A stretch of DNA of 64,000 nucleotides from a virus (Duplodnaviria; Heunggongvirae; Uroviricota; Caudoviricetes). Location of the stretch: the IMG/VR virus record IMGVR_UViG_3300017792_000001, positions 40,697 through 104,696 of that record. One strand, given 5' to 3'. Below, in pieces: positions 41,593 through 57,856 of this stretch (position 1 is its first letter; each line of letters starts with the position of its first letter). The position numbers and the translations under genes were made by a program. The notes below the pieces were generated by a model. The model worked only from the letters and a program-made list of their open reading frames with translations. It was not told where the DNA came from and ran no database searches.

Positions 41593-42606
41593 CTACGCTG
41601 ATACTGCGGGACAGATACAGAGAATTGCTTTACTGAACGTGACTTGCTTCACGAACGGTTCGTTCCAGTTCTTGGAGGCGCCTATACTACCAGAAACCCC
41701 ACCAATGAAACAGCGTTCTTCGGTAGCAGTGATGCAGTTTGCGGGTTGTGAACCGACAGCAGCAACGATGTTTGCGGCATTACCGCCTGCTACGACTGGG
41801 GTGAATGTGTCCTTTGTCAAGGCGAGTGCGATTGCAGAGCCGCCAGCGATCTGGTTGCTACCGCCGCACATTGCCCAGACACCACGAGTCTTGTCATAGA
41901 ACACATCGTTCCAGACTCGGCTATCCCCACCGCCAAAGTAGTTCATTACCAGGCTGCCGGTGTATACACCAGTGCTCAGTTTTGTGGCTTGTCCAACCGC
42001 ACCGACGATACCGTCTTCGTTGACAGTCCCGCCGTAAACCCCATAGTACGAACTACCAAAGCCTGCGGCGGCTAGACGAACAAGCACACCATCTTTGTGC
42101 TGCGGTGTGCGTACTACCATAGCAGAACGGTAGTCACCGATGTGCGTGAACACAAACACACCTTTCGCTGCACCTGAACTCCAACCGATAGTACCAGGTG
42201 TTGCATATGGGCAGTCGATGCTAGTCCACGTAACGCCATTGATCGACCAGAACAAACGGTTTGCGGATGTGTTGCCTCGTGCATAGAAGCAGAACACACC
42301 GTCGCTGTACTCAATGGCATTGATGCCGAAGGTGGTTGGTGAAGGTGTAGCAACCCACGTCTTGCCGTCGTCATGTGAAAGAAGGATCTTGCCGCCTTCA
42401 CCAACAGCTACCCAGACATCACTACCGAAAGCAACGCTGTTCAGTTGGGTCGTGATGCCACTGACGACTACTTCCCAGGTATCTCCCGAATCTTCGGTAC
42501 GGGCGATTAAGCCGCCTGCCCCTACCGCCACGAGCAGACCTGGATCATCGCCGAGTGAAGGTCTAGGTCCCGGCCAGGGTGAACGAGATGGGACCAGGGT
42601 CAACAT
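41593..42606 (-). CDS. BNR-repeat beta-propeller protein, putative receptor-binding or glycosidase tail protein
   Basis: Canonical BNR/Asp-boxes TEDSGDTW and SHDDGKTW; N-terminus MLTLVPSRSPWP shared with two downstream fibre genes. Confidence 0.55.
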   Translation of the reverse strand: MLTLVPSRSPWPGPRPSLGDDPGLLVAVGAGGLIARTEDSGDTWEVVVSGITTQLNSVAFGSDVWVAVGEGGKILLSHDDGKTWVATPSPTTFGINAIEYSDGVFCFYARGNTSANRLFWSINGVTWTSIDCPYATPGTIGWSSGAAKGVFVFTHIGDYRSAMVVRTPQHKDGVLVRLAAAGFGSSYYGVYGGTVNEDGIVGAVGQATKLSTGVYTGSLVMNYFGGGDSRVWNDVFYDKTRGVWAMCGGSNQIAGGSAIALALTKDTFTPVVAGGNAANIVAAVGSQPANCITATEERCFIGGVSGSIGASKNWNEPFVKQVTFSKAILCICPAVSA

Positions 42607-42720
42607 TACGTCTGCACCTCACGATAGTGATCGCCTTCTGCCTTGCGCCGTGCAGTCTTCAACAACTTGCGGGCAAGACGGCCTTGGATAGCACGCATAT
42701 CGGATTCAGGTCCTACGCGT

Positions 42721-43401
42721 TTATCCTTCTGTTGCTTCGACTTCTTCGTCGGCAGGGATTCTTGGGTAGGTGCCCCAAGTTCCGCTTGCTGTCGGAGTAT
42801 CAGTTGCATTTCCATTGGGTTCAGTCCAGTCGATTAATGCAGGTGCAAACTCGGCAAACTTGCTGAAAGCCACGCGATAGCTGTCACCTGTGAATGTACC
42901 GATGACGTTGCGTGTCATGCAGTTCTCGGTGTCAATCACAAGGAACAACACCCATTCGCGCTCGCCCAGACCCAACTCACCAAGCTGGTCGAAGCCGAGA
43001 CAGACGTAGTGGTTGTGATAGACCTGGAACGTGGCTTGCATCGGGAACTTCTGAGTGTCAGGCAGTTCAATGCGATTCCAGTTTGCACCATTCGCTTGCA
43101 GGATGTTGTTGAGTTCGAGTGCGACCTCAGACTCCAGAAGCTTGGTGTAGTTGATGTAGTTCTCAAACAGCTTGCCAGTGAGTTGCGCCGTGTTGTCTGA
43201 GGGTGCCACACCTGCCTGATCAAGCATCATCTGGATGAAGTTGACGGCTTTGTCTTCGAGTCGATCACCAGCACGCATACTGTGGACGATACCCGTGTTA
43301 CGCAGCATTGCCATGAGTGCAGCAGCATCGCCGAGTACGACAGGTTGTCCGTAAGAGAGACTGGTGTACTTCTCCTTGTTGAAAAACAGTTTGAGCTTCA
43401 T
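42721..43401 (-). CDS. hypothetical protein (possible fibre chaperone or assembly factor)
   Basis: 226 aa, RBS GAGGG 6 nt upstream; sits between receptor-binding-protein genes. Confidence 0.45.
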   Translation of the reverse strand: MKLKLFFNKEKYTSLSYGQPVVLGDAAALMAMLRNTGIVHSMRAGDRLEDKAVNFIQMMLDQAGVAPSDNTAQLTGKLFENYINYTKLLESEVALELNNILQANGANWNRIELPDTQKFPMQATFQVYHNHYVCLGFDQLGELGLGEREWVLFLVIDTENCMTRNVIGTFTGDSYRVAFSKFAEFAPALIDWTEPNGNATDTPTASGTWGTYPRIPADEEVEATEG

Positions 43402-43472
43402 TGCATGCCCTCATTTGGATAGGCATAAATTACAGACCTGAAGACGGGCCCTATACAAGCGGCCCGAATGCG

Positions 43473-46400
43473 TTACAGGTTGGCGCGTGAAGCACGCACG
43501 ATGCGGAAGTTTTTGAGCGTCATATCCGAGTTCCAGATGACACCACCGCTTGCACCGATACGTCGCCCAATCAGGAACTGAGTATTGGTATCGAGCTGGA
43601 TGTCGTCTGTGAATGCAGACTCGCCGATCTTCACGTTGTCTACCCAGAAGGACAGCATGCCGCTAGAACGGGTGACTTGCACCTTGTACATGGTGTTCAG
43701 GGCGAAGTTGGCAGGGAAGATGCGATACTGCGCAGAGCTTTCATTACCGACGGAGAAGCCGAGATTACCAGTGCCGAAGTTGTAGTTCACCTCATAGTTC
43801 ATCGGGCTTCCAGGTGTTGCAACGTTACCCCAGAAGACCAATGCTACAAGTGAACCGTTCGCTCCAGAAGGCTGTGAGCTTTGCAGACTGAATTCCATGT
43901 CAATCGTGAAGTCACCAGAACCGAGAACAAGCGCTTGGCTTGGTGGAATGGTGATGTACGACCCAGGCGTGATACGCACACCGTCAGCAACTACCGAAGT
44001 ACCAACACCAGAGCCAAGGGCGAGTGACCCTTTGTCGATGATCGTGGTACCTGCCATCTTGATTCGCGGCAGTGTCGATGCTGGCGTAATCTTGCCGTTG
44101 TACATCGCACGTTTGGCAATGCGGATGTTCGTCACTTGCAAGGTATTCGCTGTACCCGAGGTGTTGTCCCACAGGTTACGCAGTGGTCGCAGAGCCGCAC
44201 GGTTGATGAACGGGATTGGTGCACTGCCCTCAGCAACCTTCACACCATCGAAGTACATGGTGATCGTGGAGCCGACCTTCTCGACGACAACGTGGCAGTC
44301 AGAGTTGAGCGGCAGTGGAACACTCGCTTGAATGTTGCGTGCAGAACCAGCACTGTCTACCCAGTAGAAGATCACACCACGACTGCCGCTAGTCCACATC
44401 AACCAGTTACAGTTTGCATCGAAGGCATTACCGTACTGACCCATGATGCCAGATTCAGCAGTCGCTGGGTTTACAGGCATCCGCACCTTGCACTCAATCG
44501 TGAAGTCAGCAGCACCGAAATACGCACACGGTGCAGAGAAACGCGACGTGGCTTGCGGCTGGATGTTCAAGCGACCATACGCAACGGTTGCAGTACCGAG
44601 CAGAGTGATGTTCTCACCAGTCGCTTCGTTTACCAGAGAGTTCTGGCGCATGCAGGACTGGAACACGATGTCAGCAGCAACCGCTTCGTCGTACACCGCA
44701 GGCGTAATCGTTGGCAGAATCGTTGGTGGTGTGAACGGTCCGTTGTATGCAGACTTACCGCGGAAGATCCGCATGTTCCAACGCTTACCGATTGCACCGT
44801 TGCGAATGTTCAGGAACTCTGTACTTCTGAATGTCGCAGTAGCGTTCGGCCCTGAGTAGATCGGCACACCGTTGAGATAGATCGTCAACACACCAGCGAC
44901 ACGTCCAACGGCCAAGTGATGATCAGCGTTCAGCGTGAAGCCTGCAGCAGGCACAGTGATGCGCCCGGTGTTCGGGCTTGCACCATTATCGTTCACGATT
45001 GCAATTACGGTACCGTTGGCTTGTGCGCCCAGAAAGAAGGCAAAGTCAGTGGAACCCGACGGTGCGTACATCGACAGAGCTGCAGCCGCATCAGGAATCG
45101 AAGACATATTCAGCCAGCCTTCAATGCTGAAATCCTCAGCAGCCGACAGGTACAGCGGCATTGCCATATCCATCGGCTTGTCAGTTGACGCCGTATTCAC
45201 CAGCTTGTTACCTGTGATCGTGGCGTTCGATAGCAGCACAGGTGCTTGAGTAACATCGTCTATCGCCAGATTGTCACGGAAGCTGAACTGCGACCAGAGA
45301 GTTGTATCGAACACCATGGAAGGTGCCACGCCTGAATTCAGGATCATGACGCGATGCGTCGTGTCAGCCGTATTTTGAGGTGCGAACGTACCGATGATCG
45401 CGACCGTGCTGTCATCAATGTTGTGCAGCATACTGTCGTAGGTCTGCTTGGACAAACTCAGACCCAGTAGCTTGCTGTTTGCAGACGCATTGACCGCGTT
45501 GGTTGCCGGATCATAACGGAACACGTACACACGCAAATCAGTGGACATCCGTGCCACAATATCTGGCGTGTTAATCAAGTTTGAAGACAGAGCAGCGGGT
45601 GGATTACCAACACCTGCAATGACGATGAACGTGGTCTGATCGACCCAGATTGCATCTTCCATTGTCAACGTGGCGAAGTCAATTCCAGACGCAGTGCTCG
45701 ACAAAGCCGTGATGCCTTGAATATAACCATTCGAAGCACTTCGCGTGAATTGAGAAACTACAACCTGAGCACCGTTGAAGTTGACAAACTTGTCTCCTTC
45801 AATCGGGACAATGTTCCGAGTATACGAAGGTGCAGACGTAGCATAATAGGCATTACGTCCATCGTCAAAGCTGCCTGTGCTGAAATCCAGATAGAAAGCA
45901 GCAGTCTCAGCAGCAACCAGAGACCAGACTTTACCCTTACGATCAACGCGATGTCCCGAATACAGCGGCGCCATACTTGTGGCTTGGTAGTTCGCACTAC
46001 CTCGCGCTTTCTCCGCAACAATCGTATCACCAGACATAGTGATCTTGAACATCATCTGGTAGTCTTTGGCTGCACCTTGTCCTCGACTACCACTCGTTGT
46101 GCCGTTGTACCACGCAATCCCATTACCTGCACTTAGCAGCAGTGGAAGTTGAGGTTGCAAACTGTCAGATGCAGTTGCCGTGGTTGTTGCGGCAGTACGA
46201 CTGACCAACGATACGCTATCATCCGAGTTCACGTTGAGCAGCGCGAACGAGTGGACGGTTGCCAACCCGTTCTTGACGTTGACGTTCTCTGGGATGCTGA
46301 GCACTAATCGTGAGTCAGTAATCTTGGTGATGCGCATCATTGGATGCTGCACCGCCGAGTTACCATTCATGTTCGCGATGAAGCTCGGTGCTTTGAACAC

Positions 46401-46655
46401 CGGCTTCTTGTCCACGAAGTTTACGATCTGGACGTAATACTTGTTCACACCCGCTTGCACACCAGCGAAGACCAAAGCGATCTTGGTCTTGCTGATCGGG
46501 CACCAACTAAGCGCCCGCGTAGACACTGCCATAGCAATGTCAGACGCAGGTGTTGGGATTGTGTTGGACTCGGTTGTGAGGTTCCCGTTGTACCAATCAG
46601 TAGGCAGCGCACGCACAAAAGGCCACGGCGATCTAGCAGGTATTAATGCGAGCAT
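43473..46655 (-). CDS. large tail fibre / receptor-binding protein with tandem LamG/ConA-like jelly-roll domains
   Basis: 1060 aa; repeated ...DFT-I-E... and ...LT-I-Y-x-N/D-G-V... motifs typical of LamG/pentraxin folds; N-terminus MLALIPARSPWP. Confidence 0.6.
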   Translation of the reverse strand: MLALIPARSPWPFVRALPTDWYNGNLTTESNTIPTPASDIAMAVSTRALSWCPISKTKIALVFAGVQAGVNKYYVQIVNFVDKKPVFKAPSFIANMNGNSAVQHPMMRITKITDSRLVLSIPENVNVKNGLATVHSFALLNVNSDDSVSLVSRTAATTTATASDSLQPQLPLLLSAGNGIAWYNGTTSGSRGQGAAKDYQMMFKITMSGDTIVAEKARGSANYQATSMAPLYSGHRVDRKGKVWSLVAAETAAFYLDFSTGSFDDGRNAYYATSAPSYTRNIVPIEGDKFVNFNGAQVVVSQFTRSASNGYIQGITALSSTASGIDFATLTMEDAIWVDQTTFIVIAGVGNPPAALSSNLINTPDIVARMSTDLRVYVFRYDPATNAVNASANSKLLGLSLSKQTYDSMLHNIDDSTVAIIGTFAPQNTADTTHRVMILNSGVAPSMVFDTTLWSQFSFRDNLAIDDVTQAPVLLSNATITGNKLVNTASTDKPMDMAMPLYLSAAEDFSIEGWLNMSSIPDAAAALSMYAPSGSTDFAFFLGAQANGTVIAIVNDNGASPNTGRITVPAAGFTLNADHHLAVGRVAGVLTIYLNGVPIYSGPNATATFRSTEFLNIRNGAIGKRWNMRIFRGKSAYNGPFTPPTILPTITPAVYDEAVAADIVFQSCMRQNSLVNEATGENITLLGTATVAYGRLNIQPQATSRFSAPCAYFGAADFTIECKVRMPVNPATAESGIMGQYGNAFDANCNWLMWTSGSRGVIFYWVDSAGSARNIQASVPLPLNSDCHVVVEKVGSTITMYFDGVKVAEGSAPIPFINRAALRPLRNLWDNTSGTANTLQVTNIRIAKRAMYNGKITPASTLPRIKMAGTTIIDKGSLALGSGVGTSVVADGVRITPGSYITIPPSQALVLGSGDFTIDMEFSLQSSQPSGANGSLVALVFWGNVATPGSPMNYEVNYNFGTGNLGFSVGNESSAQYRIFPANFALNTMYKVQVTRSSGMLSFWVDNVKIGESAFTDDIQLDTNTQFLIGRRIGASGGVIWNSDMTLKNFRIVRASRANL

Positions 46656-46663
46656 ATAGAGCC

Positions 46664-49600
46664 TCAGACAAATTCGAAGGCGATCTCTCGACCCTCAGCG
46701 AGAGGATTCATTGCAGTCACACCGGACCAATAACCGGATTGCGCACCAAGCGGCGAAACAAAGCCACTGGTAGGTTGTTGGTTGTAGACGAATGTAACCC
46801 CGTTGATGATCAAGGTATTAGTCCAAGCGGGCATATCGCTCGTTGGAGTCAGTGTTGTGTCCTCCCAGCCCAGGATTAAGAACGAGCCACGGTCCATGAA
46901 CAGACCTTTCAGGCGACGTACAATCGTTGTGCTCCCAGAGGTATAACGGAACAACTTGTGCGTGCAAGAACCAAGACTGATGTAGGCACCGCCGCCGCTT
47001 GATACGCTGTACGACGAATTCTCCATGTAACCGTAGATCGTACCGACATCACCAGAGAAGAAACCCATGGTGAGCGAAGGTTTGATCGTGTTCAGCCGCT
47101 TATACTGCGGGAACTTCGGTACGGTGCCTTTGTACTGACTTGTCTTCGAGATACGCACATCACGCACGGACAGACCGCCGCTGCCGATATCACCACGTTG
47201 AATCGGCAATGTCGTTGCAGGCAGTGCACCAGAGAATGTACCACTGGCTTTTGCGACACCATCAAAGTACAGAGTTATGGTTGTACCTACGCGCTCAGCA
47301 ACCACGTAGTATTCTTGGTTCAGCACAAGGGCTTCTGGGTTCGTGATGACCACCAAGCCTGTGAGTGCAGCACCCGTCGAACTGAGTACAAGCCCGATCT
47401 TACCGTCCATGAGACGGAACTGCCACGAGTTGTTGCTCGCGCTATTCAGGAACTGACCGATCAACGACACAGGGTTACCTGAGATAGACGACACCACTAG
47501 GCGCGCTTCAATCGTGAAGTCACCAGCACTGAATGCAGGTGTCAAACCAGCCCATGCAAACCCACCGTTGGTGCTGATACGACTGGACAGAACCGAACCG
47601 TTTGCAGCAGGTACCGTAATCAGCGTACCGAGCTTATCGTCACGTGGCGAGCGAGACACCGTGGCTTGAGTAACGACGTTCGCCTCTTCCGCTGTCGTGT
47701 ACTTGTTGTCAGGGAAACCAGGAAAGGTTGCAGCAACATCGACTACGCCATTGTACATGGCTTTGTCAGCGATGCGAATGTCCCAGATCCAACCAGTGCC
47801 GCTATAGTTACCTGTACCCGGACTGTAGTTGCGAACGAAGCGTGGAGCTTCACCGCGAATCGGGAACGTGCAAGGGGCAGACAGCTTGTCAACCTGAACG
47901 CCAGTGTGGGCATCCAGAATATACAGCGTCAGTACACCAGCAACACGCTCAACGATCACGCGGTAGTCGATGTTCAATGCCAGAGCAACGGTCGAATACA
48001 GCGAGACTGCATCAGTGCCGACAGTCGAACGGTTCATCTGGAAGTAGGCTTTGCGGTCCGCAGCGATCAGCAATGCCCAGCGGTTCAAGTCGTTAGTGGC
48101 AGAACCCAACCACCACTCGCTCAGTAGCAAGAAGCCAGCAGTAGCGCCAGCAACCGACATATTGAAACTGCACTCGATGGTGAAGTCACCTGCACCGAAC
48201 GGGTCTGCGAGTAGCATGAACCCGTTGGTTGAGGCTTGAGTGCCTGTGAACTTCATGCGACCTTGTTGTACGACTTGGTTCGCACCGCCGGTGTTGACAA
48301 CAACTCGGTCGTTGGCTTCATCAATCACTGCATCGCGACGGAATCCAACCTGTGCACGAATTGCCTTGGCATCATCAACACTATACAGCGGGCGCACGTA
48401 TGTCTGCACCGAAGTATCTGGTGTGAAGCTCTCGGTGTGACGGCAGATGCCTTTGTCGATATACAGACCACGACGTGTGCCACGGAACGCATACGAGTTG
48501 GAGTTTGTGCCGAAGCCAATACCACGTGCGCTTGCAGGTTGCGGACCAATACCGCCGTTGTTGACAGTGCTGAGAGTCTGCTTGACGCCGTTCATGAACA
48601 CATAGAACTGACCACCTTTGCGGCTAAACTCAATGTGCAAATCGGCACCTGCAGCCACAACAACGTCTTGCCCAGGTACGAGCGCGATAAACGCACCTGC
48701 CACCTTCACGTAGAAGAGAAACTTGTTGAAGTTCTTGCCGTAGAGAATGTAGAACGTACCAGCAGTATCGCCTGGTACATCACACGAACCAGCGATCAAC
48801 AGGTCTGTGGTAATTGCGGCAGCGGACAGAGTGTTCAACGGTGTGATCGTCAGACCAATCGTGAAGTCCTCGTTATCCTTGAACAGCAACGTGTCCTTGA
48901 TGCGCATCGACGAGGCGGCAGTTGTGGTAGTGACTTTATTGTCCGCAATTGAAATGCCGGAACCTGCAAGGATACCGAACTTCTCGGTAACATCGTCGAT
49001 GTGCTCGTTGGTTGCGAACGAGAAATGCCTCCAGCGGTTGAAGTCGCTGAGCGTGAGCTGGCGTACGGTGATGCTCGATACAACGGAGCGTGCCGTGTAG
49101 GTCAGATTCCAGTTTGCCCAATCAGCACTGTACCAGATCTTCTCGTCGCCGATGATCAGGCTGTTCGAACCAGCAGCATAGATGTCACGCAGCGCTTGGT
49201 TTGCACCGAACATCGTGTTCATGGTTGCAGCAGGAATTTGTTCCCATGCAGTACCAGCAACACCCTTGTACATCAGCGATTGACCAGTGGCAGAGTCTGC
49301 GTTACCGATCTGGAATACAGTGTCAGTTGAGACTTGCGTTGCACTGCCGCCACTGTACAAGGCGTTGCTTGCAGCGCTTGCACGGGTAGCGGTCCAGCTC
49401 GTATCAGATGGTTTGCGACGATAAGCGCCAGCACCTTGGCGAACAGCAACAAGGTACTCTTTACTTTCAGTGATCGAACCAATAACGATGTACTGCGAAC
49501 CTGAAGTCACGTTATCGGTGGTGACAGTGTAGCCGTTGCCGTTCCAAGTGAACACATGGAAACCACGCAGAGCATCACCGACACCTGGTTGATATATCGC

Positions 49601-50059
49601 ACCAGTGGAAAGACGCTTCGCTTTACCGCCACGGAAACCTGTTTGAGTAGGCGCAGTGTAAGTGCCGCGAGTCCACGTTGCACCGTTGTCAGTCGTGAAG
49701 AAGTAGGACGAGTTGCTGCCCAGAACAAGGAAGCGCCCACTGTCGAAGACGATGGAACCCTGATCGAGCGGAGTGCCTGAGACGATAGCAGCCGGAATCG
49801 TGAGCTTCTCCCACGTAACGCCGTCGTCAATAGAACGCAAGATCGTGCAGTTCGTACCACACGCCATCCACTGCCCGTTGCCGTATGCAGCTTGGTGCAG
49901 ATTCGCTGTGGTCAATCCCGTAGCCATTTCGGCCCACGAAGTTCCGTCTATTGAGCGTGCAATGAGACCAGATGCTCCTACCGCGACTGCGGTTATTCCT
50001 TTACTAGCCACTTGCCTCACAAACGGCCACAAGGCGAACTTGGGGATTAGACTGAGCAT
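46664..50059 (-). CDS. large tail fibre / receptor-binding protein (BNR propeller + LamG-like domains)
   Basis: Start set to internal ATG (MLSLIPKFALWP; RBS AGGA) at 50059; BNR boxes SIDGTSW, SIDDGVTW, TTDNGATW, then LamG-like repeats (GDFTIE ... TLYFDG). Confidence 0.55.
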   Translation of the reverse strand: MLSLIPKFALWPFVRQVASKGITAVAVGASGLIARSIDGTSWAEMATGLTTANLHQAAYGNGQWMACGTNCTILRSIDDGVTWEKLTIPAAIVSGTPLDQGSIVFDSGRFLVLGSNSSYFFTTDNGATWTRGTYTAPTQTGFRGGKAKRLSTGAIYQPGVGDALRGFHVFTWNGNGYTVTTDNVTSGSQYIVIGSITESKEYLVAVRQGAGAYRRKPSDTSWTATRASAASNALYSGGSATQVSTDTVFQIGNADSATGQSLMYKGVAGTAWEQIPAATMNTMFGANQALRDIYAAGSNSLIIGDEKIWYSADWANWNLTYTARSVVSSITVRQLTLSDFNRWRHFSFATNEHIDDVTEKFGILAGSGISIADNKVTTTTAASSMRIKDTLLFKDNEDFTIGLTITPLNTLSAAAITTDLLIAGSCDVPGDTAGTFYILYGKNFNKFLFYVKVAGAFIALVPGQDVVVAAGADLHIEFSRKGGQFYVFMNGVKQTLSTVNNGGIGPQPASARGIGFGTNSNSYAFRGTRRGLYIDKGICRHTESFTPDTSVQTYVRPLYSVDDAKAIRAQVGFRRDAVIDEANDRVVVNTGGANQVVQQGRMKFTGTQASTNGFMLLADPFGAGDFTIECSFNMSVAGATAGFLLLSEWWLGSATNDLNRWALLIAADRKAYFQMNRSTVGTDAVSLYSTVALALNIDYRVIVERVAGVLTLYILDAHTGVQVDKLSAPCTFPIRGEAPRFVRNYSPGTGNYSGTGWIWDIRIADKAMYNGVVDVAATFPGFPDNKYTTAEEANVVTQATVSRSPRDDKLGTLITVPAANGSVLSSRISTNGGFAWAGLTPAFSAGDFTIEARLVVSSISGNPVSLIGQFLNSASNNSWQFRLMDGKIGLVLSSTGAALTGLVVITNPEALVLNQEYYVVAERVGTTITLYFDGVAKASGTFSGALPATTLPIQRGDIGSGGLSVRDVRISKTSQYKGTVPKFPQYKRLNTIKPSLTMGFFSGDVGTIYGYMENSSYSVSSGGGAYISLGSCTHKLFRYTSGSTTIVRRLKGLFMDRGSFLILGWEDTTLTPTSDMPAWTNTLIINGVTFVYNQQPTSGFVSPLGAQSGYWSGVTAMNPLAEGREIAFEFV

Positions 50060-50169: not shown

Positions 50170-50706
50170 TTAGATCGAGGTCACTCGCACACACGCTGGT
50201 TCAGTTACCTGACCATACGCATTCACCAGACGGTAGGCAAAGGACTCTTGCCCACTGTTACCTTGAGAGACGTAGGCAATGTGCTGACCGTCATTCGATA
50301 CTCGCGCCACACCCTTTTCAGGTTGACTGAGGATCTGAGGCCAGAACGGAATGCTCGCCTTGAACATGCTGTCACCCTCGCCCTGTACAAGGGCTTTGCC
50401 AAGGTTGATCACATGATCTTCAAAAGGTGCGATGGCTTTGAACACCCGAATTTGATACTCTCCGGGCGTGCGAGTTACGAGAAAGCCGCCCTCGAACCAG
50501 TAGTCAGGTTGAAACCCTTCTGCACGGTTCAAAGACACGCCGTCACTGGTTCGAATCACGTCAAACAGACCGCGATTGATCGGATCCATTTCGAGCCGAT
50601 CAGTGAAGACTTCTTCGGTGAACTCCACAGAAGCCTTGGGTAAGAACTTCTGTAGATCGTTGATGGAAGGTTTGGCATAACGAAACACTGGACTTGACGC
50701 AAGCAT
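50170..50706 (-). CDS. hypothetical structural protein
   Basis: ATG 50706 overlaps the upstream TAA (TAATG); the ORF track extends further to an alternative start. Confidence 0.45.
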   Translation of the reverse strand: MLASSPVFRYAKPSINDLQKFLPKASVEFTEEVFTDRLEMDPINRGLFDVIRTSDGVSLNRAEGFQPDYWFEGGFLVTRTPGEYQIRVFKAIAPFEDHVINLGKALVQGEGDSMFKASIPFWPQILSQPEKGVARVSNDGQHIAYVSQGNSGQESFAYRLVNAYGQVTEPACVRVTSI

Positions 50707-53669
50707 TAGCCACCTCCCACATAGCCGTAACGTTTTTGTTGCTCCGGCGGCTTGATGATAATGCCACACGTAGCGTTCTCAGCGAGAGGCTTCGCAACGA
50801 AGATCCACTTGCCGTTGATCTGGAAGAACTCGGTGCGTTGCGCTTCAACCTCAGCAGCGTATGCCTGAGCCTGTGCTTGCGAACCAAATCCAGATTGTTC
50901 CTCTGGCAGGAAGAAGTCCTGGCTTGCGACAGCGTACATCGGAGTTGCTTTCGCGACCTCGACAGCCGTTGGTGCGTGACGCTCATACACCATGTCGAAG
51001 CTACTTGCCTCGTTGACTTGATTCCAGTAGTACGCTGCATCAATCTTGCGACTGACAACTTGGTTCCACTGGTACGCCGCAGAGATAAGCTGGAACTTCT
51101 CAACGTCAGGTCGGAACCATTCGAACGGTCCGATTTCTTCACGGTGATACAGTTGATAACCCTGAACCACAATATCCGCGAAGTGACGATTCAGCAACGT
51201 GCGTGGTTCTGCCGTGATGTCCTGGTACTCGACGTGTCGCAGCGTGTGTGCAAGCCATTCCGTACCAATGCGCTCAACGTGACGCAGAGTGTAGGTGTTC
51301 CAGCTTGTGCCGATCTTCTCGACGTGCTGCAATGCGTACTTGCCGAACAGTGCGTTGATCTTCTCGATGTGTTGCACCATGGCCTTGGACCACTTCGCAT
51401 CAATCGGGTAGATTTTATTGCGCTGCCAACGATTCCACAACTGACCGTCCCAAGTACGGAACAGAGTGTCACGCAATGCTGGATCTGCTTGTACTGTCCA
51501 GTAATGCGACGGTACGTTGCGCACAGCTTCGATAACGGGGATGTACGCCCAGTAACCACCGAAATGGTTAATGGTTTGCTGCATCGCGTCAAACGGTGCC
51601 ATGGTGCCTTGCAACTGCTTGACCGCCTCGATGTTCCGGTCGAGTGACATCACAGTCGTATAGTCGCGAACTGCTCCAGGAACTGCTGCTCCAGTGCGTC
51701 GTACACTACCGTGGGTAATGCGGAGCGCAGTAGGAACGGCCATGTTTGGCAGACGTGATGTGTTACGCAGCTTTGTCGCAGTCAGTCCACGATCCAGTTC
51801 AACCAGCGTGCCTTGCAGCATATGCTCGCCAACCAGTGCCGTTTGCTTCTTGACGCTTTGACCACCACCGATCATGCCATCATAGCGATTGCGCAGGTCA
51901 GTCTTCTCTTGGCGTCGTTCGACACCATTGAGTACCATAGGCAGCAGCGTGATGGAGAACACCACGTTGTCGTCAGCGGCATGAGTGTCGTGCGTGTTGC
52001 GCACCGGACGCAGGTTCTGGAGAACGGAGCGAACCTGAATCACGTCACCATTCTTGATCGTACCGCTGTAGCCAAACTCACCACCGTTGATCGAGAACGA
52101 AACCTCTGACTCGCCCACGTTCGATGTCACGTCAGCAGTGAAGCCTTCGGTGATACCTGCAACAACGTAGGTCGGAGACAGGTACTCGTACTTCGGTACC
52201 GCGTTGTTGATCTGCGGCAACGACTTCGGATTTGGGAACAACTTCGGCTGAGTACGCAGCATGATCGACGTAGGACGACGGCCCATCAGGGTTACCCAAC
52301 GGTCGTAGTACCAATCGGTCGAAGCAGGCATGGTGATCACCAGCTTGTCACCGAAACGCAGATACCCGCCAGTCCAATCGACACCGTTCAGCTTGACTGT
52401 GGCACCTGGGCTAGTTGCGAGCTTCACGTATTCAGCGCGAGGCCATGCGCAAGTCCAGGTATAGCTGATCGCTTTGTTCCAGGTGAAGTCAGCAGGTTGC
52501 ACCAGCACTGGAGACACAGCAGGCTCAAGCGTTGTTACCGCAGCAGCGTCGCTATACAGGTCAGTCACCACGTAGTCCGCAAGGTAAGTAGCACCGTACG
52601 TTTTGGTGGTTGTGATGTCTGCACGCCCAGTGAAGTCGAGGGCGAACGTTGCGGTTACCGTTGTGTCAAAGAAGCCGACATATACGGTGGTGTCCTTGAC
52701 AGTGATCGAGCGCGGCACGTCGTTGAAGTACGTGAGCTTGTAGGTGTTGTCCGCCAGCAGGAGTTTCATTGCACAGCGGTTTGCACCATCGACCACATAC
52801 AGGTCAGTTGCGTTGCTGTCTGCCGCAATGTATGTACCATTGAGCGGGACAAGCACTGTGGTGACGTAGCTGCCACTAACCAGCGCAGTCTTCTTGATCC
52901 CGCCGTTGCCGAAGGTGATATACGAGTTGTCGTACAGCACATACAGGCCGTGCAGTGCGTCCAGTTCCGCGTTAGTGGTCGTGGTGAGCACAGCACTGGT
53001 AGCAGGACTCCAGCGAACGAGACTGCTGGCATAAGCGAACACCAAGTTGCCGTCAACATCACCAGAGGCAGCAACAACGCCGTCAGTAATGGAGAACGTG
53101 GCATCAATGGCGAACGCGGTGGTCAGCCGAATGATTTGCGACTTGGTGACAATGAAGGGAACAGTCTGCACGCCGTCTGCCAATGCCCAACGTGGAGCAT
53201 AGATGACAGCAACAGGCACTGTGGTGAGCGTGAGCTTCTTGACAGCATTCGCCGCGTTGAAGAACCACACTTCTTTCTTTACAAAATCAATGGAAGCGAC
53301 CGCGTCCCCTGCAGTGAACGTGCCGGTGTCCGTGTAAGGGACTTGAGCACCTGAAGGGTAGTGGGTTAGCTTGCCATATGTGCTACCAGTCAGTCGCTGA
53401 TACGCCAAGTCACTGATGTAGCGCAGAGTCTTGGGTAGATCGACAAACCAGTAGTATTGCTTGCCACCGAGCTGAACGCTGATTTCGGCATACGCAGTCA
53501 CGGTCGTACTCAACCGAACCACATCACCTTGCTTAACCGGAATCGTAACTCCCGGCTGATAGGTGGTGCCCTTATAGATGACGCTACACGCGGCGATCAG
53601 ATCACCGGAGAGCGGCACTGTGCAATCAACTGTCGTCGCGCCGGAGGCCAAACTAACTGGAATGTACAT
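50706..53669 (-). CDS. large virion protein (baseplate or host-specificity candidate)
   Basis: 987-aa ORF in the tail gene block; RBS ggag upstream; beta-rich composition. Confidence 0.5.
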   Translation of the reverse strand: MYIPVSLASGATTVDCTVPLSGDLIAACSVIYKGTTYQPGVTIPVKQGDVVRLSTTVTAYAEISVQLGGKQYYWFVDLPKTLRYISDLAYQRLTGSTYGKLTHYPSGAQVPYTDTGTFTAGDAVASIDFVKKEVWFFNAANAVKKLTLTTVPVAVIYAPRWALADGVQTVPFIVTKSQIIRLTTAFAIDATFSITDGVVAASGDVDGNLVFAYASSLVRWSPATSAVLTTTTNAELDALHGLYVLYDNSYITFGNGGIKKTALVSGSYVTTVLVPLNGTYIAADSNATDLYVVDGANRCAMKLLLADNTYKLTYFNDVPRSITVKDTTVYVGFFDTTVTATFALDFTGRADITTTKTYGATYLADYVVTDLYSDAAAVTTLEPAVSPVLVQPADFTWNKAISYTWTCAWPRAEYVKLATSPGATVKLNGVDWTGGYLRFGDKLVITMPASTDWYYDRWVTLMGRRPTSIMLRTQPKLFPNPKSLPQINNAVPKYEYLSPTYVVAGITEGFTADVTSNVGESEVSFSINGGEFGYSGTIKNGDVIQVRSVLQNLRPVRNTHDTHAADDNVVFSITLLPMVLNGVERRQEKTDLRNRYDGMIGGGQSVKKQTALVGEHMLQGTLVELDRGLTATKLRNTSRLPNMAVPTALRITHGSVRRTGAAVPGAVRDYTTVMSLDRNIEAVKQLQGTMAPFDAMQQTINHFGGYWAYIPVIEAVRNVPSHYWTVQADPALRDTLFRTWDGQLWNRWQRNKIYPIDAKWSKAMVQHIEKINALFGKYALQHVEKIGTSWNTYTLRHVERIGTEWLAHTLRHVEYQDITAEPRTLLNRHFADIVVQGYQLYHREEIGPFEWFRPDVEKFQLISAAYQWNQVVSRKIDAAYYWNQVNEASSFDMVYERHAPTAVEVAKATPMYAVASQDFFLPEEQSGFGSQAQAQAYAAEVEAQRTEFFQINGKWIFVAKPLAENATCGIIIKPPEQQKRYGYVGGG

Positions 53670-53742: not shown

Positions 53743-54747
53743 TTACGCAGCAGGTACGCCACCGCCGTCGATCAGGAACAGCAGGCGCATTTTGGTGTTG
53801 TTCGCACCGTTGGCTTTCAGTGCGCGATACAGACGTGGGGTCTGCTCGTTGTACACGGTGACCGGGATTTCCGATTCTTCGGCGATCACGTCAGCACTGG
53901 TATATGCGATCATATCCAGTTCTTCGGTGTACGCGTAGCGGTCGGTGTTCAGACGGTTCGGGAAGGTGATCAGGTACTTGTTGCCCTTGGCAATAGCAAC
54001 CTGGTCCTTACCATTCAGAATCGCGGCGCTGTTCACGGTGTCGATTTCGGCAGATACCGACTTCGTTGGACGGAACACGTCGCTTTCCGATACGACGAAC
54101 TTCTGAGCTTCTTGCGAGTCGCAGGAGTACACGCAGAAGATCGGGCTGTTGTCGGTTTTCAGGACAGCACCAGTCGACTTGTCGACAGGAGCCTGGATCA
54201 GGAACCAGCTGTTGGACGGCGAAACGTCCGAAGCATCTTCCCACACTTGCAGCGCCAGGCCACGATCGGTAGCGACCATGTAGTAGCTGTAGGTGGTACC
54301 GGCGTCGTACACGACGTTCAGCAGGTTGCGAGTGATGAACACGTCGCCCAGTGCTTGGCCTTGGGTTTTCGACCAGGCATTACCCAGTTGACCCATGACG
54401 CGGTCGCCGTACTGCTGACCGGTGTTGTTACCTGGGAACTGAGTGGTGCTGCCGTCCGCTGGGATCTGCTGTGGGTTAGCCACGGCAATCTTCAGGGTAC
54501 CGGTGCCAGGGTTCTGGGTAGTCGAAGCAACGTCAACCAGCAAGCGCCACGGTTGGGTAGCGTTCATCGGGTTGATGGCAGCGTGCGAGTCGAACACGAA
54601 CTTGCCCGAACCGGCGGTCAGCGCAAACGGAGTGCTCGAAGCTGGAAGGATCTGAGTCAGACCAACAGCCTTGAGGTCGGTGAACAGAGCCAGAGCAACA
54701 GCGCCCAGGCCTTGCAGTTTGGATTTGGTATATACTTTACCAGCCAT
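53743..54747 (-). CDS. abundant virion structural protein (major tail or tube/capsid-associated candidate)
   Basis: Start at ATG 54747 with strong RBS GGAGA (7-nt spacing); highly biased codon usage; followed by an attenuator hairpin. Confidence 0.5.
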   Translation of the reverse strand: MAGKVYTKSKLQGLGAVALALFTDLKAVGLTQILPASSTPFALTAGSGKFVFDSHAAINPMNATQPWRLLVDVASTTQNPGTGTLKIAVANPQQIPADGSTTQFPGNNTGQQYGDRVMGQLGNAWSKTQGQALGDVFITRNLLNVVYDAGTTYSYYMVATDRGLALQVWEDASDVSPSNSWFLIQAPVDKSTGAVLKTDNSPIFCVYSCDSQEAQKFVVSESDVFRPTKSVSAEIDTVNSAAILNGKDQVAIAKGNKYLITFPNRLNTDRYAYTEELDMIAYTSADVIAEESEIPVTVYNEQTPRLYRALKANGANNTKMRLLFLIDGGGVPAA

Positions 54748-54761
54748 TGATGTGTCTCCGG

Positions 54762-55328
54762 TTATACAGAAATAAACCCACAAAGGGTGATCGAGATGTC
54801 GGCCAACGCTGGGTCGGTCGTTTGAGGCGCAAACACAACAATCGTTTCCCCACGTTTAATGAGGATGTCATCCATGGAGTTCGATTGGAATTCAGCAGTG
54901 TCATTCCCATCCGAAAACACAATGTTTCCGATGAAGTTGGCAGAGCCGTCTTCTGGTGTATGCACAATCGAGAACTCTTGCGTGCTTGTCGAAGGCTGTA
55001 GCGCTTTTGCAATCGCTCCTGCGAAGCCGCCCTGAATTACAAACGAGCGGGGTGCAACGAACAGCATTACGCGCTGGTTAGCTTCCGGGCTGCCGAAGAC
55101 AGTACCCGACAAGTCATAAGACAGCAGGCTGTATTGCGGCGAGCGCAAAGTCCAGACGTTACGAGTGAACTCGTAGATGCCAGGACCTTGATTACCAGCG
55201 GCTTGAGTGAGTTCCCACAGAGCACCGTCAGTTGGAACTTGCGGGAATTGGGTTCCCCGGCGAGCTTCATCCAACATCTCAATGCCAAGACCAGAACCTG
55301 CGGCGATAGTTAGACCATCAGTCAGCAT
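54762..55328 (-). CDS. hypothetical structural protein
   Basis: Start set to ATG 55328 (RBS AGGAG, 7-nt spacing); ORF-track start 55367 is GTG. Confidence 0.45.
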   Translation of the reverse strand: MLTDGLTIAAGSGLGIEMLDEARRGTQFPQVPTDGALWELTQAAGNQGPGIYEFTRNVWTLRSPQYSLLSYDLSGTVFGSPEANQRVMLFVAPRSFVIQGGFAGAIAKALQPSTSTQEFSIVHTPEDGSANFIGNIVFSDGNDTAEFQSNSMDDILIKRGETIVVFAPQTTDPALADISITLCGFISV

Positions 55329-56149: not shown

Positions 56150-57856
56150 TTATGCTGCTACTTTCTTACCGCTGACAACCACGAAGATTTTCTGCGCAAC
56201 AGCCAGGGTGACGGTGACGGTGTTGGCGTCAGTCAGCTTGACCGAATCAGGCAGTAGCTGGTTGAACGCTTCGTCGTACACGGCAACAGTCGCGAAACGG
56301 TTGTTCATGTTGTGCGTGACAACGTAGCTATCGGCAGCAGCACCGGTAGTACCGTCGAACACGAACTGGTTCGCGTCCAGCTTGGCACCCAGATCAGTGA
56401 TGGTCTGAGTAACGGTGGTCACTGCGTCGGTCACAGTCTTGCGGTTCGCGATGCTGGTGTCAGCAGTCGGAGCAGGAACAGCGATCTGGCCAGTCAGGGT
56501 TGCAGTCGCAGCGTCCAGCTTCAGGTACGAAGCCGAGATATCACCGATTGCAACACCGTCGGTGGTAACAGTGACAGTGCCGTCGGCAGCTTTGACAGCG
56601 AGCGCAGTACCTGCACCGCCTTGGAGGCCGTTACCAACAACGTCAGCAGCCAGGTTGGCAGCTTTCACGCCTTCGCTTGCGATGCGAACGCCGGTAGCGT
56701 CAACGGCGAGGCCGCCAGTGTCTTTCAGCAGAACAGCCAGCACGGAATCAGCAGCGGTAGAAGCATCGCCAGTGATCGGGTCGACCAGACGCAGACCGCC
56801 AGTGGTGCCGACGTCGAGACCGATTTCACCGGTAGGTAGGTTAGCAACACCAGCACCGAACTTGACGCTCAGAACGTTGCCGTTCTTTTCCAGACCAGCG
56901 GATACAGTGACGCCGCTCAGGCCGCCTTGTTCCGACCAGTTGGTGCCGTCAAACTTCTTGTACTTGCCTTCTGCGCGATCCCAGACCAGGACGCCAGGAC
57001 CACGAACGCTCACGTCGTAGATCACAACGTAGTCGTCGCCTTTCTTCTGGATGATGTCGCCATCTTCCAGGCCGTCGATAGTACCGAACTCAGCGTTCAG
57101 GGTATCGGCGTCGGTAACGATGTAGCGGTTCTCGTTGTCAGGAACGACAGACAGAGTAGGCGTCAGGGTACCGTCAACCTGGGTTGCGATCACGTCGGCT
57201 TGGAAGTCGAGCGAGGCTTTCAGGTTGTCGATGTCGATCAGACGCACAGGGCTGGTCGGATCGGTTGGCGCAGACAGGTTCAGCAGCGTGTGAGTGCCGC
57301 CGAAGTTCAGGTCGCCGGTCAGTGCATCGCCAGCTTTGTTTACCGGAACGTAGCCCAGGTCGTCTTGCTTGAGTTCGATCTGGGTCTGGATGTTGTCGGT
57401 AACGCCATCCAGGTGGTTCAGTTCGGTAACGCTGATCAGTGCGGAACCACTGATCTTGCCATCAGCATCAGTAACTGCAACCACGGACGGAGCCAGGTCG
57501 AGAGTAGTGATGGTAGTAGCGGCACCAGTGATCTTGTCCTGCTTGGCTTCACCAGCAGTTTCGATTGCAGCGGTGAGCTGGCCGACAGTAGCGGCTTCGA
57601 GGGCTTGAACGCCGTCAGCAGCGAGGATCAGCGGACCGGTGAGCGTGCCACCTTCTTTCGACAGGTAAGCATCGAGGCTACCACCAGTTGCGATGGTCAG
57701 CACTTCGGTACCGTTGTACCAGCGCAGTGCTTTGTCGGTGGTGTTGACCCACGTCAGACCCTGAACAAGATCAGCGCCGGATGGATCAGCCGCGAGACGA
57801 CCAGGCTTCAGGCCCTGAATCTCGCCGACTACTTGAATATTGCCGTTATAGCGCAT
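56150..57856 (-). CDS. tail fibre protein
   Basis: N-terminus NGNIQVVGEIQGLKPGRLAADPSGADLVQGLTWVNTTDKALRWYNGT typical of a fibre N-domain; phage-fibre repeat GGTLTGPLIL; long Gly/Thr/Ala-rich beta repeats. Confidence 0.7.
   Translation of the reverse strand: MRYNGNIQVVGEIQGLKPGRLAADPSGADLVQGLTWVNTTDKALRWYNGTEVLTIATGGSLDAYLSKEGGTLTGPLILAADGVQALEAATVGQLTAAIETAGEAKQDKITGAATTITTLDLAPSVVAVTDADGKISGSALISVTELNHLDGVTDNIQTQIELKQDDLGYVPVNKAGDALTGDLNFGGTHTLLNLSAPTDPTSPVRLIDIDNLKASLDFQADVIATQVDGTLTPTLSVVPDNENRYIVTDADTLNAEFGTIDGLEDGDIIQKKGDDYVVIYDVSVRGPGVLVWDRAEGKYKKFDGTNWSEQGGLSGVTVSAGLEKNGNVLSVKFGAGVANLPTGEIGLDVGTTGGLRLVDPITGDASTAADSVLAVLLKDTGGLAVDATGVRIASEGVKAANLAADVVGNGLQGGAGTALAVKAADGTVTVTTDGVAIGDISASYLKLDAATATLTGQIAVPAPTADTSIANRKTVTDAVTTVTQTITDLGAKLDANQFVFDGTTGAAADSYVVTHNMNNRFATVAVYDEAFNQLLPDSVKLTDANTVTVTLAVAQKIFVVVSGKKVAA

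What the first reader, a model, noticed from the sequence alone, without database searches (positions are those of the whole stretch)
41593..50059. Three consecutive receptor-binding-type genes share an N-terminal MLxL(V/I)PxRSPWP module but carry different distal domains
The products start MLTLVPSRSPWPGP (41593-42606), MLALIPARSPWPFV (43473-46655) and MLSLIPKFALWPFV (46664-50059, after start correction). Downstream they diverge into BNR propellers, tandem LamG-like jelly rolls or both. A shared short N-terminal adaptor on otherwise unrelated fibres is the signature of a common docking site on the baseplate. It suggests a multi-receptor-binding-protein, branched-fibre phage with modular exchange of receptor-binding domains. 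Together with a collagen-like fibre, two fibres carrying the phage-fibre repeat and a Calx-beta protein, this is an unusually rich adsorption apparatus.
Basis: seen in the sequence. Interest (0 to 1): 0.6.

Follow-up and report, generated by a model that had tools for sequence, protein, structure and literature searches.

The report
Shared N-terminal tag on phage adhesins
Three large sugar-binding-type proteins of a PaBG-like giant phage all start with the same 15-residue peptide, which is kept at the extreme N-terminus across related phages while the domains behind it are swapped or inserted, so it is most likely a plug that fastens interchangeable host-recognition proteins to the virus particle.

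Summary
On the minus strand, g1131 (46664-50059), g1060 (43473-46655) and g337 (41593-42606) begin M-L-x-L-(I/V)-P-x-x-(S/A)-(P/L)-W-P-x-x-R. The motif occurs nowhere else in the six frames of the window.

The window is a jumbo phage related to Pseudomonas phage PaBG. PaBG and at least five metagenomic relatives carry the same tag at the first residue of genes in the same hypervariable cassette. That cassette lies between a conserved gp224/gp223-like pair and the lysis genes.

Natural variants show that the tag is an independent module. Relatives have tag plus LamG body directly. In the window a BNR propeller (g1131) or a 400-residue domain (g1060) is inserted between tag and body. That 400-residue domain is a stand-alone gene elsewhere.

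Codons of the conserved residues differ between the paralogues, so selection acts on the peptide. AlphaFold leaves the tag unstructured ahead of the propeller.

A docking or address peptide is the best explanation. It parallels the "conserved peptides" of secondary receptor-binding proteins in K1-5, G7C and KP32-type phages. Docking, the partner and the baseplate location are inferred, not shown. No T4gp10-like branching domain was found.

Corrections to the finding: the genes are not strictly consecutive, and their bodies are homologous mosaics, not unrelated.

The parts
50015..50059 (-). N-terminal tag of g1131 (residues 1-15, MLSLIPKFALWPFVR)
   Evidence: Identical 15 residues in orthologue L019_1129.
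46664..50059 (-). g1131: tag, BNR/Ycf48-like propeller (about residues 17-330; nt about 49070-50011), LamG-type body (about 335-975), C-terminal domain (about 976-1131)
   Evidence: Pfam Laminin_G_3 34.9 bits; Sortilin/BNR sub-threshold. PHROG 3545. Residues 335-1131 align at 48% with L023_814 residues 18-814, which has the tag directly on the body. Residues 1-148 align at 35% with g337.
46611..46655 (-). N-terminal tag of g1060 (MLALIPARSPWPFVR)
   Evidence: No alternative upstream start.
43473..46655 (-). g1060: tag, short linker resembling the L023 115-aa mini-protein (PTDW), inserted 400-residue all-new domain (residues about 41-441; nt about 45333-46535), three LamG domains (residues 453-1060)
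   Evidence: Laminin_G_3 98.3 bits, 3 stretches. Residues 453-1060 align at 57% with L023_633 residues 23-630. Residues 41-441 align at 32% with stand-alone L023_418, and also with L023_409 and L019_416/410. N-terminal alignment.
42562..42606 (-). N-terminal tag of g337 (MLTLVPSRSPWPGPR)
   Evidence: Orthologue P0003/L019_338 starts MLAMVPSRSPWPGPR.
41593..42606 (-). g337: tag plus Ycf48/BNR-like beta-propeller
   Evidence: AF2: residues 1-18 have pLDDT below 50, and the propeller is confident from about residue 21. Foldseek best hits are Ycf48 at E 1e-8. Homologues carry PF14870/PF02012/PF15902.
42721..43401 (-). g226, homologue of PaBG gp214 (PaBG_00272); conserved cassette companion without tag; function unknown
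   Evidence: 28% identity to gp214, E 2e-22. Present in L019, L023, L024 and L027; absent in L005.
42606..42815 (-). Conserved 69-aa ORF overlapping the 3' end of g226; its stop overlaps the ATG of g337
   Evidence: Homologues of 67-77 aa in L026, L027 and L005.
50170..50706 (-). gp223-family protein (178 aa), N-terminus MLASSPVFRYAKP is a relative of the tag; a candidate further client of the same attachment system (the partner role is assigned to g987)
   Evidence: 57% identity to PaBG gp223. PaBG_00263 is a Coomassie-visible virion band of 18.9 kDa (PMC7412058 Table 1; numbering). Extended-motif scan.
50706..53669 (-). g987, gp224 family: N-terminal beta domains, 7-bladed WD40-type propeller, 15-residue tandem repeats (residues about 760-850), invariant C-terminal GYxGGG; candidate scaffold for the tagged proteins

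Best explanation
The 15-residue N-terminal peptide (consensus M-L-S-L-I-P-x-x-S/A-P/L-W-P-x-x-R) is a lineage-specific docking or address tag. It is followed by a short Pro/Gly-rich linker.

It fastens interchangeable carbohydrate-binding adhesin proteins to one common kind of socket on the virion of PaBG-like jumbo phages. These proteins carry LamG arrays, BNR propellers, a fibrinogen-like domain and others.

The tag only has to stay at the free N-terminus. Recombination can therefore replace the body, or insert whole domains between tag and body, without losing incorporation. This yields a hypervariable host-recognition cassette.

The socket is most likely supplied by the conserved proteins encoded immediately upstream. 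These are g987/gp224 (WD40-type propeller plus a repeat shaft) and possibly gp223.

Shown:
- The tag's position, its conservation and its protein-level selection.
- Its restriction to this cassette.
- The domain insertions behind it.
- Its lack of structure in the monomer model.

Inferred: physical docking, the identity of the socket, the location on the tail, and a role in receptor binding.
For: 1. Specificity in the window: 3 of 3 hits are at residue 1 of these genes and there are none elsewhere in six frames.

2. Conservation across the lineage at residue 1 of cassette genes:
- PaBG gp215, gp216 and gp217.
- L005/L006 proteins of 484, 1124 and 862/865 aa.
- L002 663 aa.
- L019 1129, 869 and 338 aa.
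- L023 115, 814 and 633 aa.
- L027 484 aa.
M1, W11 and P12 are invariant; L2, P6 and R15 are nearly so.

3. True N-terminus: in most cases no start codon is possible upstream, and independent gene calls agree.

4. Selection on the peptide, not the DNA: between the window paralogues 4 of 5 to 8 of 8 identical multi-codon residues use different codons, and nucleotide identity is only 21-26 of 48.

5. Module independence:
- L023_814 and L023_633 carry the tag directly on the LamG body.
- g1131 has a 315-residue propeller inserted after the tag, and g1060 a 400-residue domain.
- That 400-residue domain exists as stand-alone, untagged genes in L019 and L023.
- The homologous LamG adhesin of PA5oct, annotated ESI-MS/MS, has an unrelated N-terminus.

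6. Restriction to the lineage:
- The degenerate DNA pattern over IMG/VR hit only PaBG and the L005-type contigs, 2-3 sites per genome, plus one out-of-frame chance hit.
- A profile over 1.84 billion representatives gave 5 lineage members and 2 low-complexity artefacts.

7. Structure: the tag (residues 1-18) has pLDDT below 50 and lies outside the propeller.

8. Context:
- The cassette ends the baseplate/fibre gene block, which runs from PAAR through the wedge and fibre genes to gp224, gp223, the cassette and then lysis.
- PaBG homologues of the neighbours (PaBG_00257, 00261, 00263) are abundant virion proteins.
- g987 contains a WD40-type propeller. From general knowledge, this fold commonly binds short linear peptides.

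9. Precedent: N-terminal 'conserved peptides' of 7-29 residues dock secondary RBPs in K1-5, G7C and KP32. Deleting 29 residues abolishes incorporation of KP32 RBP2 (PMC6872550, PMC13352976).
Against: - There is no direct evidence that any tagged protein is in a virion. The PaBG band list does not include PaBG_00269-271.
- No T4gp10-like branching domain, the known socket type, was seen in g987 or by Pfam in the window's structural genes.
- L026 keeps gp224 and gp223 but has no canonical tagged gene in the cassette. Scaffold and clients are therefore not strictly co-inherited.
- The proteins lack hallmarks of trimeric fibres.
- Complex prediction could not be run.
- The profile search is only sensitive to close variants of the tag, so 'lineage-restricted' holds only at that sensitivity.
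Confidence: 0.6

Rival explanations
1. Hetero-oligomerisation tag. The identical N-terminal peptides of the three tagged proteins associate with each other, for example as a three-stranded bundle. This would make one mixed complex of two long adhesins plus one short one, and that complex would be mounted by other contacts.
For: Five different phages have exactly three canonical tagged genes, always two long LamG proteins plus one short one. The short ones are 337 aa in the window, 338 in L019, 115 in L023, 223 in PaBG and 484 in L005. The tag is hydrophobic and aromatic with two prolines, so an extended conformation is plausible.
Against: L027 has one canonical tag and L002 shows only one so far. 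Tag relatives also occur on gp223 and on small proteins in other numbers. Fifteen residues with two prolines would make a weak oligomerisation core.
Confidence: 0.15
2. Assembly-factor or chaperone recognition tag. The peptide would be bound transiently by a dedicated folding or assembly protein, for example the g226/gp214 family, or used for intracellular targeting. It would not form the final contact in the virion and might be removed.
For: g226/gp214 co-occurs with tagged genes in the window, PaBG, L019, L023 and L027. The PaBG authors report that some virion proteins are proteolytically processed.
Against: L005 has three tagged genes but no g226 homologue. L024 has g226 without canonical tags. 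No protease-site pattern follows the tag.
Confidence: 0.1
3. Evolutionary leftover or recombination handle. The shared 5' end would persist only because the genes are paralogues, or because it serves as a DNA homology patch for cassette exchange. The peptide itself would have no function.
For: The LamG bodies and the propellers are paralogous. The cassette is clearly a recombination hotspot.
Against: Nucleotide identity in the tag is only 21-26 of 48, with near-saturated synonymous differences, while the residues are kept. The bodies have diverged to 26-35% identity while the tag keeps invariant M1, W11 and P12. The tag is found on non-homologous bodies such as fibrinogen-like, 484-aa and 115-aa proteins. 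Insertions always leave it at residue 1.
Confidence: 0.05

Closest known systems
N-terminal 'conserved peptides' of secondary receptor-binding proteins in branched RBP systems (K1-5/SP6 gp46/gp47, G7C gp63.1, Klebsiella KP32 gp38 and KP34 gp57, PhiK64-1 group)
   Same: A short peptide of 7-29 residues at the extreme N-terminus is conserved within a phage group while the rest of the RBP varies. It lets several RBPs share one virion and lets bodies be exchanged (PMC6872550, PMC13352976).
   Different: The sequence is unrelated. The clients here are LamG, BNR and fibrinogen-type lectin-like proteins rather than beta-helical depolymerase tailspikes. Three or more proteins carry the same tag, whereas K1-5 uses different peptides for different sites. 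No T4gp10-like socket was detected, and the neighbouring conserved protein has a WD40-type propeller instead. Docking is untested here.
Pseudomonas phage PaBG (Baikalvirus) PaBG_00269-00271, annotated 'fibrinogen domain-like protein' and 'putative adhesin'
   Same: They are direct homologues or analogues in the same cassette and carry the same tag: MFKIPSISPWPGDRP and MLSLIPRLAPWPL(V/P)R.
   Different: The domain content behind the tag differs. PaBG has fibrinogen-like instead of BNR, a different 400-residue N-domain in gp216, and an extra LamG array in gp215. PaBG also has five additional untagged or variant-tagged genes (gp222-218). The tag is not mentioned in the main text of the PaBG paper that was searched.
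LamG 'putative adhesin' of Pseudomonas phage PA5oct (EST35_0309) and PHROG 3545
   Same: The LamG body is homologous (PHROG 3545). The PA5oct protein is annotated as detected by ESI-MS/MS in the GenBank record, so such bodies are known structural components.
   Different: The N-terminus is MKLGKFIHNGNL..., without the tag. It belongs to a different phage family.

Membership tests
Branched multi-RBP system with N-terminal conserved docking peptide (K1-5/G7C/KP32 type) | Short N-terminal peptide conserved among RBPs or related phages while the remainder diverges | tested here: met
Branched multi-RBP system with N-terminal conserved docking peptide (K1-5/G7C/KP32 type) | T4gp10-like branching domain in an adaptor or primary RBP that receives the peptide | tested here: inconclusive
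Branched multi-RBP system with N-terminal conserved docking peptide (K1-5/G7C/KP32 type) | Peptide is required for incorporation of the RBP into the virion and binds the socket | not testable with these tools
   Needs deletion mutants, pull-downs, cryo-EM or multimer prediction.
Branched multi-RBP system with N-terminal conserved docking peptide (K1-5/G7C/KP32 type) | Tagged proteins are virion components | not testable with these tools
   The PaBG band list contains the neighbours PaBG_00257, 00261 and 00263 but not 00269-271. The PA5oct LamG homologue is annotated ESI-MS/MS.
Laminin_G_3 / concanavalin A-like lectin domain (PF13385) | Score above the Pfam gathering threshold | tested here: met
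   g1060 98.3 bits and g1131 34.9 bits, against a cut-off of 27.6
BNR/Asp-box, Ycf48-like beta-propeller | Score above the Pfam gathering threshold for PF02012, PF14870 or PF15902 | tested here: not met
   g337 scores 18.2-18.6 bits and g1131 16.7-25.9 bits, all below the cut-offs of 27-33.
BNR/Asp-box, Ycf48-like beta-propeller | Beta-propeller fold resembling Ycf48 | tested here: met
   AF2 pTM 0.73 with confident blades. Foldseek top hits are Ycf48 at E 1e-8, with TM only about 0.42-0.45 because residues 205-271 are poorly modelled. Homologues carry the Pfam families.
Classical trimeric phage tail fibre or tailspike | Fibre or spike hallmarks: tail-fibre families, beta-helix, coiled coil, C-terminal intramolecular chaperone | tested here: not met
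   No such Pfam or PHROG families in g1131, g1060 or g337. The only 'tail' hit is phrog_13163 on a LamG stretch. No PDB sequence relatives.

The most novel reading that the evidence does not exclude
The tag is a short linear motif that plugs into the WD40-type propeller of the gp224-family protein. It may instead bind that protein's 15-residue-repeat shaft.

This would define a self-contained, sometimes duplicated accessory adsorption organelle built from gp225, gp224, gp223 and tagged clients. Its socket chemistry would be unrelated to the T4gp10-type branching used by all characterised multi-RBP phages.

It would have a fixed stoichiometry of two long adhesins plus one short one. Relatives of the tag on gp223 and on small adaptor proteins would use the same address code.
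Probability: 0.2. Interest if true: 0.65.

Novelty: new variant of a known kind. Interest (0 to 1): 0.45.

Why it matters
If the peptide is the plug, it marks the exact boundary for engineering or predicting host range in an almost unstudied jumbo-phage lineage. PaBG is the only isolate found; everything else is metagenomic.

It would extend the 'conserved docking peptide' principle in two directions. One is from depolymerase tailspikes of podophages and Vi-like phages to lectin-type adhesins of giant myophages. The other is possibly to a new socket type.

The natural series of variants is a ready-made set of constructs for testing how much cargo such a plug tolerates. The series runs from tag plus body, through tag plus inserted propeller plus body, to the inserted domain as a separate gene.

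Tried and rejected
- A megablast of the region against 50,697 phage records found no match. Only protein-level searches found PaBG.
- A tblastn with g987 found PaBG only.
- Phage NCTB, whose virion protein is 40% identical, lacks the whole gp225-gp214 module and the tag. It was therefore no use for comparison.
- The 44-residue profile in the word-indexed 5.8-billion database returned a single gp217-like fragment. That route is insensitive for short motifs.
- One IMG/VR pattern hit (L013) is an out-of-frame chance match and was discarded.
- PDB sequence searches with the gp225 homologue, g987 and g1060 gave nothing.
- I considered that the tag could be the 'velcro' strand closing the propeller. 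I rejected this because the tag also precedes LamG, fibrinogen-like and other bodies, and AF2 leaves it outside the propeller.
- I considered a signal peptide or lipobox and rejected it on inspection of the sequence: there is no charged n-region or long hydrophobic h-region, and prolines sit at positions 6 and 12.
- I considered a DNA-level element (recombination site or translational signal) and rejected it because of the synonymous divergence.
- The RefSeq/PHROG label 'tail sheath' for the gp225 family is not supported by anything found here. In the PaBG paper's band table the sheath bands are gp213 and gp76, and gp261 is listed as 'Unknown'.

Full report
**What is there**

The finding lies on the minus strand.
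- g1131 (46664-50059) starts MLSLIPKFALWPFVRQ.
- g1060 (43473-46655) starts MLALIPARSPWPFVRA.
- g337 (41593-42606) starts MLTLVPSRSPWPGPRP.

A regular expression for the shared pattern hits exactly these three sites in all six frames of the 64 kb. Each hit lies directly after the initiator Met. My own residue-frequency estimate gives about 1e-5 chance hits.

The starts are sound.
- g1060 and g337 have no possible start codon upstream of this ATG within the ORF.
- The g1131 ORF extends to a GTG at 50194, which overlaps the preceding gene. Its orthologues in L019 and L005 have stops 4 and 2 codons upstream of the same Met.
- Independent gene calls on the source contig give the same three products. 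That contig is ENA ERZ27252475 k141_3623464, 277,619 bp.

Two details of the finding need correcting.
- g226 (42721-43401) and a conserved 69-aa ORF (42606-42815) separate g1060 from g337.
- The bodies are homologous mosaics rather than unrelated. The LamG regions share 26-28% identity and the propellers 35%.

**Domains**

- Laminin_G_3 is above threshold in g1060 (three copies) and in g1131.
- BNR/Ycf48/Sortilin hits are below threshold in both g337 and g1131.
- The AF2 model of g337 is a propeller whose best PDB matches are Ycf48.

**Whose genome**

There is no nucleotide match to any isolated phage. At protein level the closest isolate is the jumbo Pseudomonas phage PaBG (Baikalvirus). The virion protein at 56150-57856 is 64% identical to its PaBG homologue.

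Synteny is clear. In PaBG RefSeq numbering the order is gp229, gp225, gp224 (g987), gp223, a variable cassette, gp214 (g226), gp213, holin, spanin, endolysin and Nudix. In PaBG this block follows the PAAR, wedge and tail-fibre genes.

**The tag is a lineage feature**

PaBG gp217, gp216 and gp215 start MFKIPSISPWPGDRP, MLSLIPRLAPWPLVR and MLSLIPRLAPWPLPR. Metagenomic relatives were found through the gp223 and gp224 families. They carry the tag at residue 1 of cassette genes:
- L005/L006: 484, 1124 and 862/865 aa.
- L002: 663 aa.
- L019: 1129, 869 and 338 aa.
- L023: 115, 814 and 633 aa.
- L027: 484 aa.

M1, W11 and P12 are invariant. L2, P6 and R15 are nearly so.

Five phages have exactly three canonical tagged genes, always two long LamG proteins and one short protein.

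Variant tags also occur:
- ...APGG on some cassette proteins.
- ...A(P/R)V on 106-133-aa proteins.
- ...FAPF on 401/408-aa proteins.
- MLASSPVFRYAKP on the gp223 family itself.

An extended regex hits 16 such N-termini and one spurious site in about 390 kb of six-frame translation. My rough residue-frequency estimate is about 0.7 chance hits.

**Restriction to the lineage**

A degenerate DNA pattern scanned over IMG/VR hit only PaBG and L005-type jumbo contigs, plus one out-of-frame chance site. It gave 2-3 sites per genome and none elsewhere in those genomes.

An exhaustive profile search of 1.84 billion representative proteins returned five lineage members and two low-complexity artefacts. 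The profile is short, so distant variants could be missed.

No paper in the searchable library mentions the motif. The main text of the PaBG paper that was searched does not discuss it.

**The tag is an independent, N-terminally constrained module**

This is the strongest result.
- L023_814 residues 18-814 match g1131 residues 335-1131 at 48% identity. The BNR propeller of g1131 is therefore an insertion between tag and body.
- L023_633 residues 23-630 match g1060 residues 453-1060 at 57% identity.
- g1060 residues 41-441 match proteins that are stand-alone and untagged in L023 (418 and 409 aa) and in L019 (416 and 410 aa).
- The first 35 residues of g1060 resemble the tagged 115-aa mini-protein that precedes those genes in L023. 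Both share PTDW after the tag.
- g1060 therefore looks like a fusion of three neighbouring genes, with the tag still at residue 1.
- The LamG adhesin of PA5oct is a homologous body annotated as detected by ESI-MS/MS. It has an unrelated N-terminus.

Between the three window paralogues, the codons of conserved residues are almost all different. Nucleotide identity is 21-26 of 48. Selection therefore acts on the peptide.

AF2 gives residues 1-18 of g337 a pLDDT below 50, ahead of a confident propeller.

**Likely mechanism**

By analogy, the tag is a docking or address peptide. Conserved N-terminal peptides of 7-29 residues dock secondary RBPs in K1-5, G7C and KP32/KP34. The KP32 peptide has been shown to be essential for incorporation and to be transferable (PMC6872550, PMC13352976).

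The socket is unknown. The candidates are the conserved proteins just upstream.
- In PaBG, the homologues of the 56150-57856 protein, of the gp225-like protein and of gp223 are Coomassie-visible virion bands (PMC7412058 Table 1; numbering resolved).
- The rest of g987 is low-confidence. It carries 15-residue tandem repeats and ends in an invariant GYxGGG.
- No T4gp10-like domain was seen.
- In L028-L030 the gp225/gp224 unit is duplicated, which suggests a self-contained module.

Against strict coupling, L026 keeps gp224 and gp223 without canonical tagged cassette genes.

**Rivals**

- Hetero-oligomerisation tag. The 2 long plus 1 short regularity favours it. Other copy numbers argue against it.
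- Chaperone or assembly-factor tag. g226 co-occurs only partly with tagged genes.
- Non-functional leftover or recombination handle. This is contradicted by the synonymous divergence, by the presence of the tag on non-homologous bodies, and by the insertions that preserve residue-1 placement.

**Verdict**

A modular N-terminal tag and domain exchange are shown. Docking, the baseplate location and 'branched fibre' are inferred.

This is a new variant of a known kind, with moderate interest.

Noticed in passing
window 50706-53669 (-), residues about 760-850 of g987: There are tandem 15-residue repeats (xLxHVExIGxxWxxx at residues 767, 782, 797, 812 and onward). A lag of 15 or 30 is the best self-match in most of the 23 homologues. 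The region is low-confidence in AF2, as expected for an obligate-oligomer fibrous shaft. The 15-residue period recalls fibre-shaft repeats, but this was not tested.
   Followed up: partly
window 50706-50730 (-) and 59517-59540 (-): Two structural-module proteins end in GGG-COOH. g987 ends ...RYGYVGGG, and GYxGGG is invariant in 23 homologues. The 283-aa protein at 59517-60368 has a signal-peptide-like N-terminus and ends ...DIVEGGG. The meaning is unknown.
   Followed up: partly
window 50170-50706 (-): The gp223-family protein (178 aa) starts MLASSPVFRYAKP, a relative of the tag. Its PaBG homologue PaBG_00263 is an abundant virion band. It may be another client of the same socket rather than the socket itself.
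   Followed up: partly
window 42606-42815 (-): A conserved 69-aa basic ORF (MEMQLILRQQAELGAP...) overlaps the 3' end of g226, and its stop overlaps the ATG of g337. It was not called on the source contig. Homologues of 67-77 aa are present in L026, L027 and L005 in front of the gp213-like gene.
   Followed up: partly
L019 11390-12931; L026 14107-15762; L023 21681-22370: Relatives carry untagged glycan-degrading enzymes at the cassette/lysis boundary. L019 has a PF00150 cellulase-family protein of 513 aa, L026 has a 551-aa homologue with a long TP-repeat linker, and L023 has a PF08787 alginate lyase. The window has none at this position.
   Followed up: no
L028 21420-22934; L029 21004-23060; L030 18164-23024: In more distant relatives the gp225-like gene is duplicated, and a second gp224-like gene follows. 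L030's second copy matches L002's. The gp225/gp224/gp223/cassette unit can therefore exist twice in one genome.
   Followed up: partly
window 53743-54783 (-): The gp225-family protein is labelled 'tail sheath' in RefSeq and in PHROG 12249. It is only 334-346 aa and has no PDB sequence relative. In the PaBG paper's band table the sheath bands are gp213 and gp76, and gp261 is listed as 'Unknown'. The label looks like annotation drift. Its PaBG homologue PaBG_00261 is an abundant 35-kDa virion band.
   Followed up: partly
L020 10724-11083; L024 22136-23000; L026 19449-19700: Further tag-variant genes lie downstream of the lysis genes in relatives: MLSLIPRIAPGGIP..., MLTFIPNKSPGGIP... and MLSSIPRYAPQL.... 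Tagged genes are therefore not confined to the cassette upstream of lysis. No equivalent occurs in the window.
   Followed up: no
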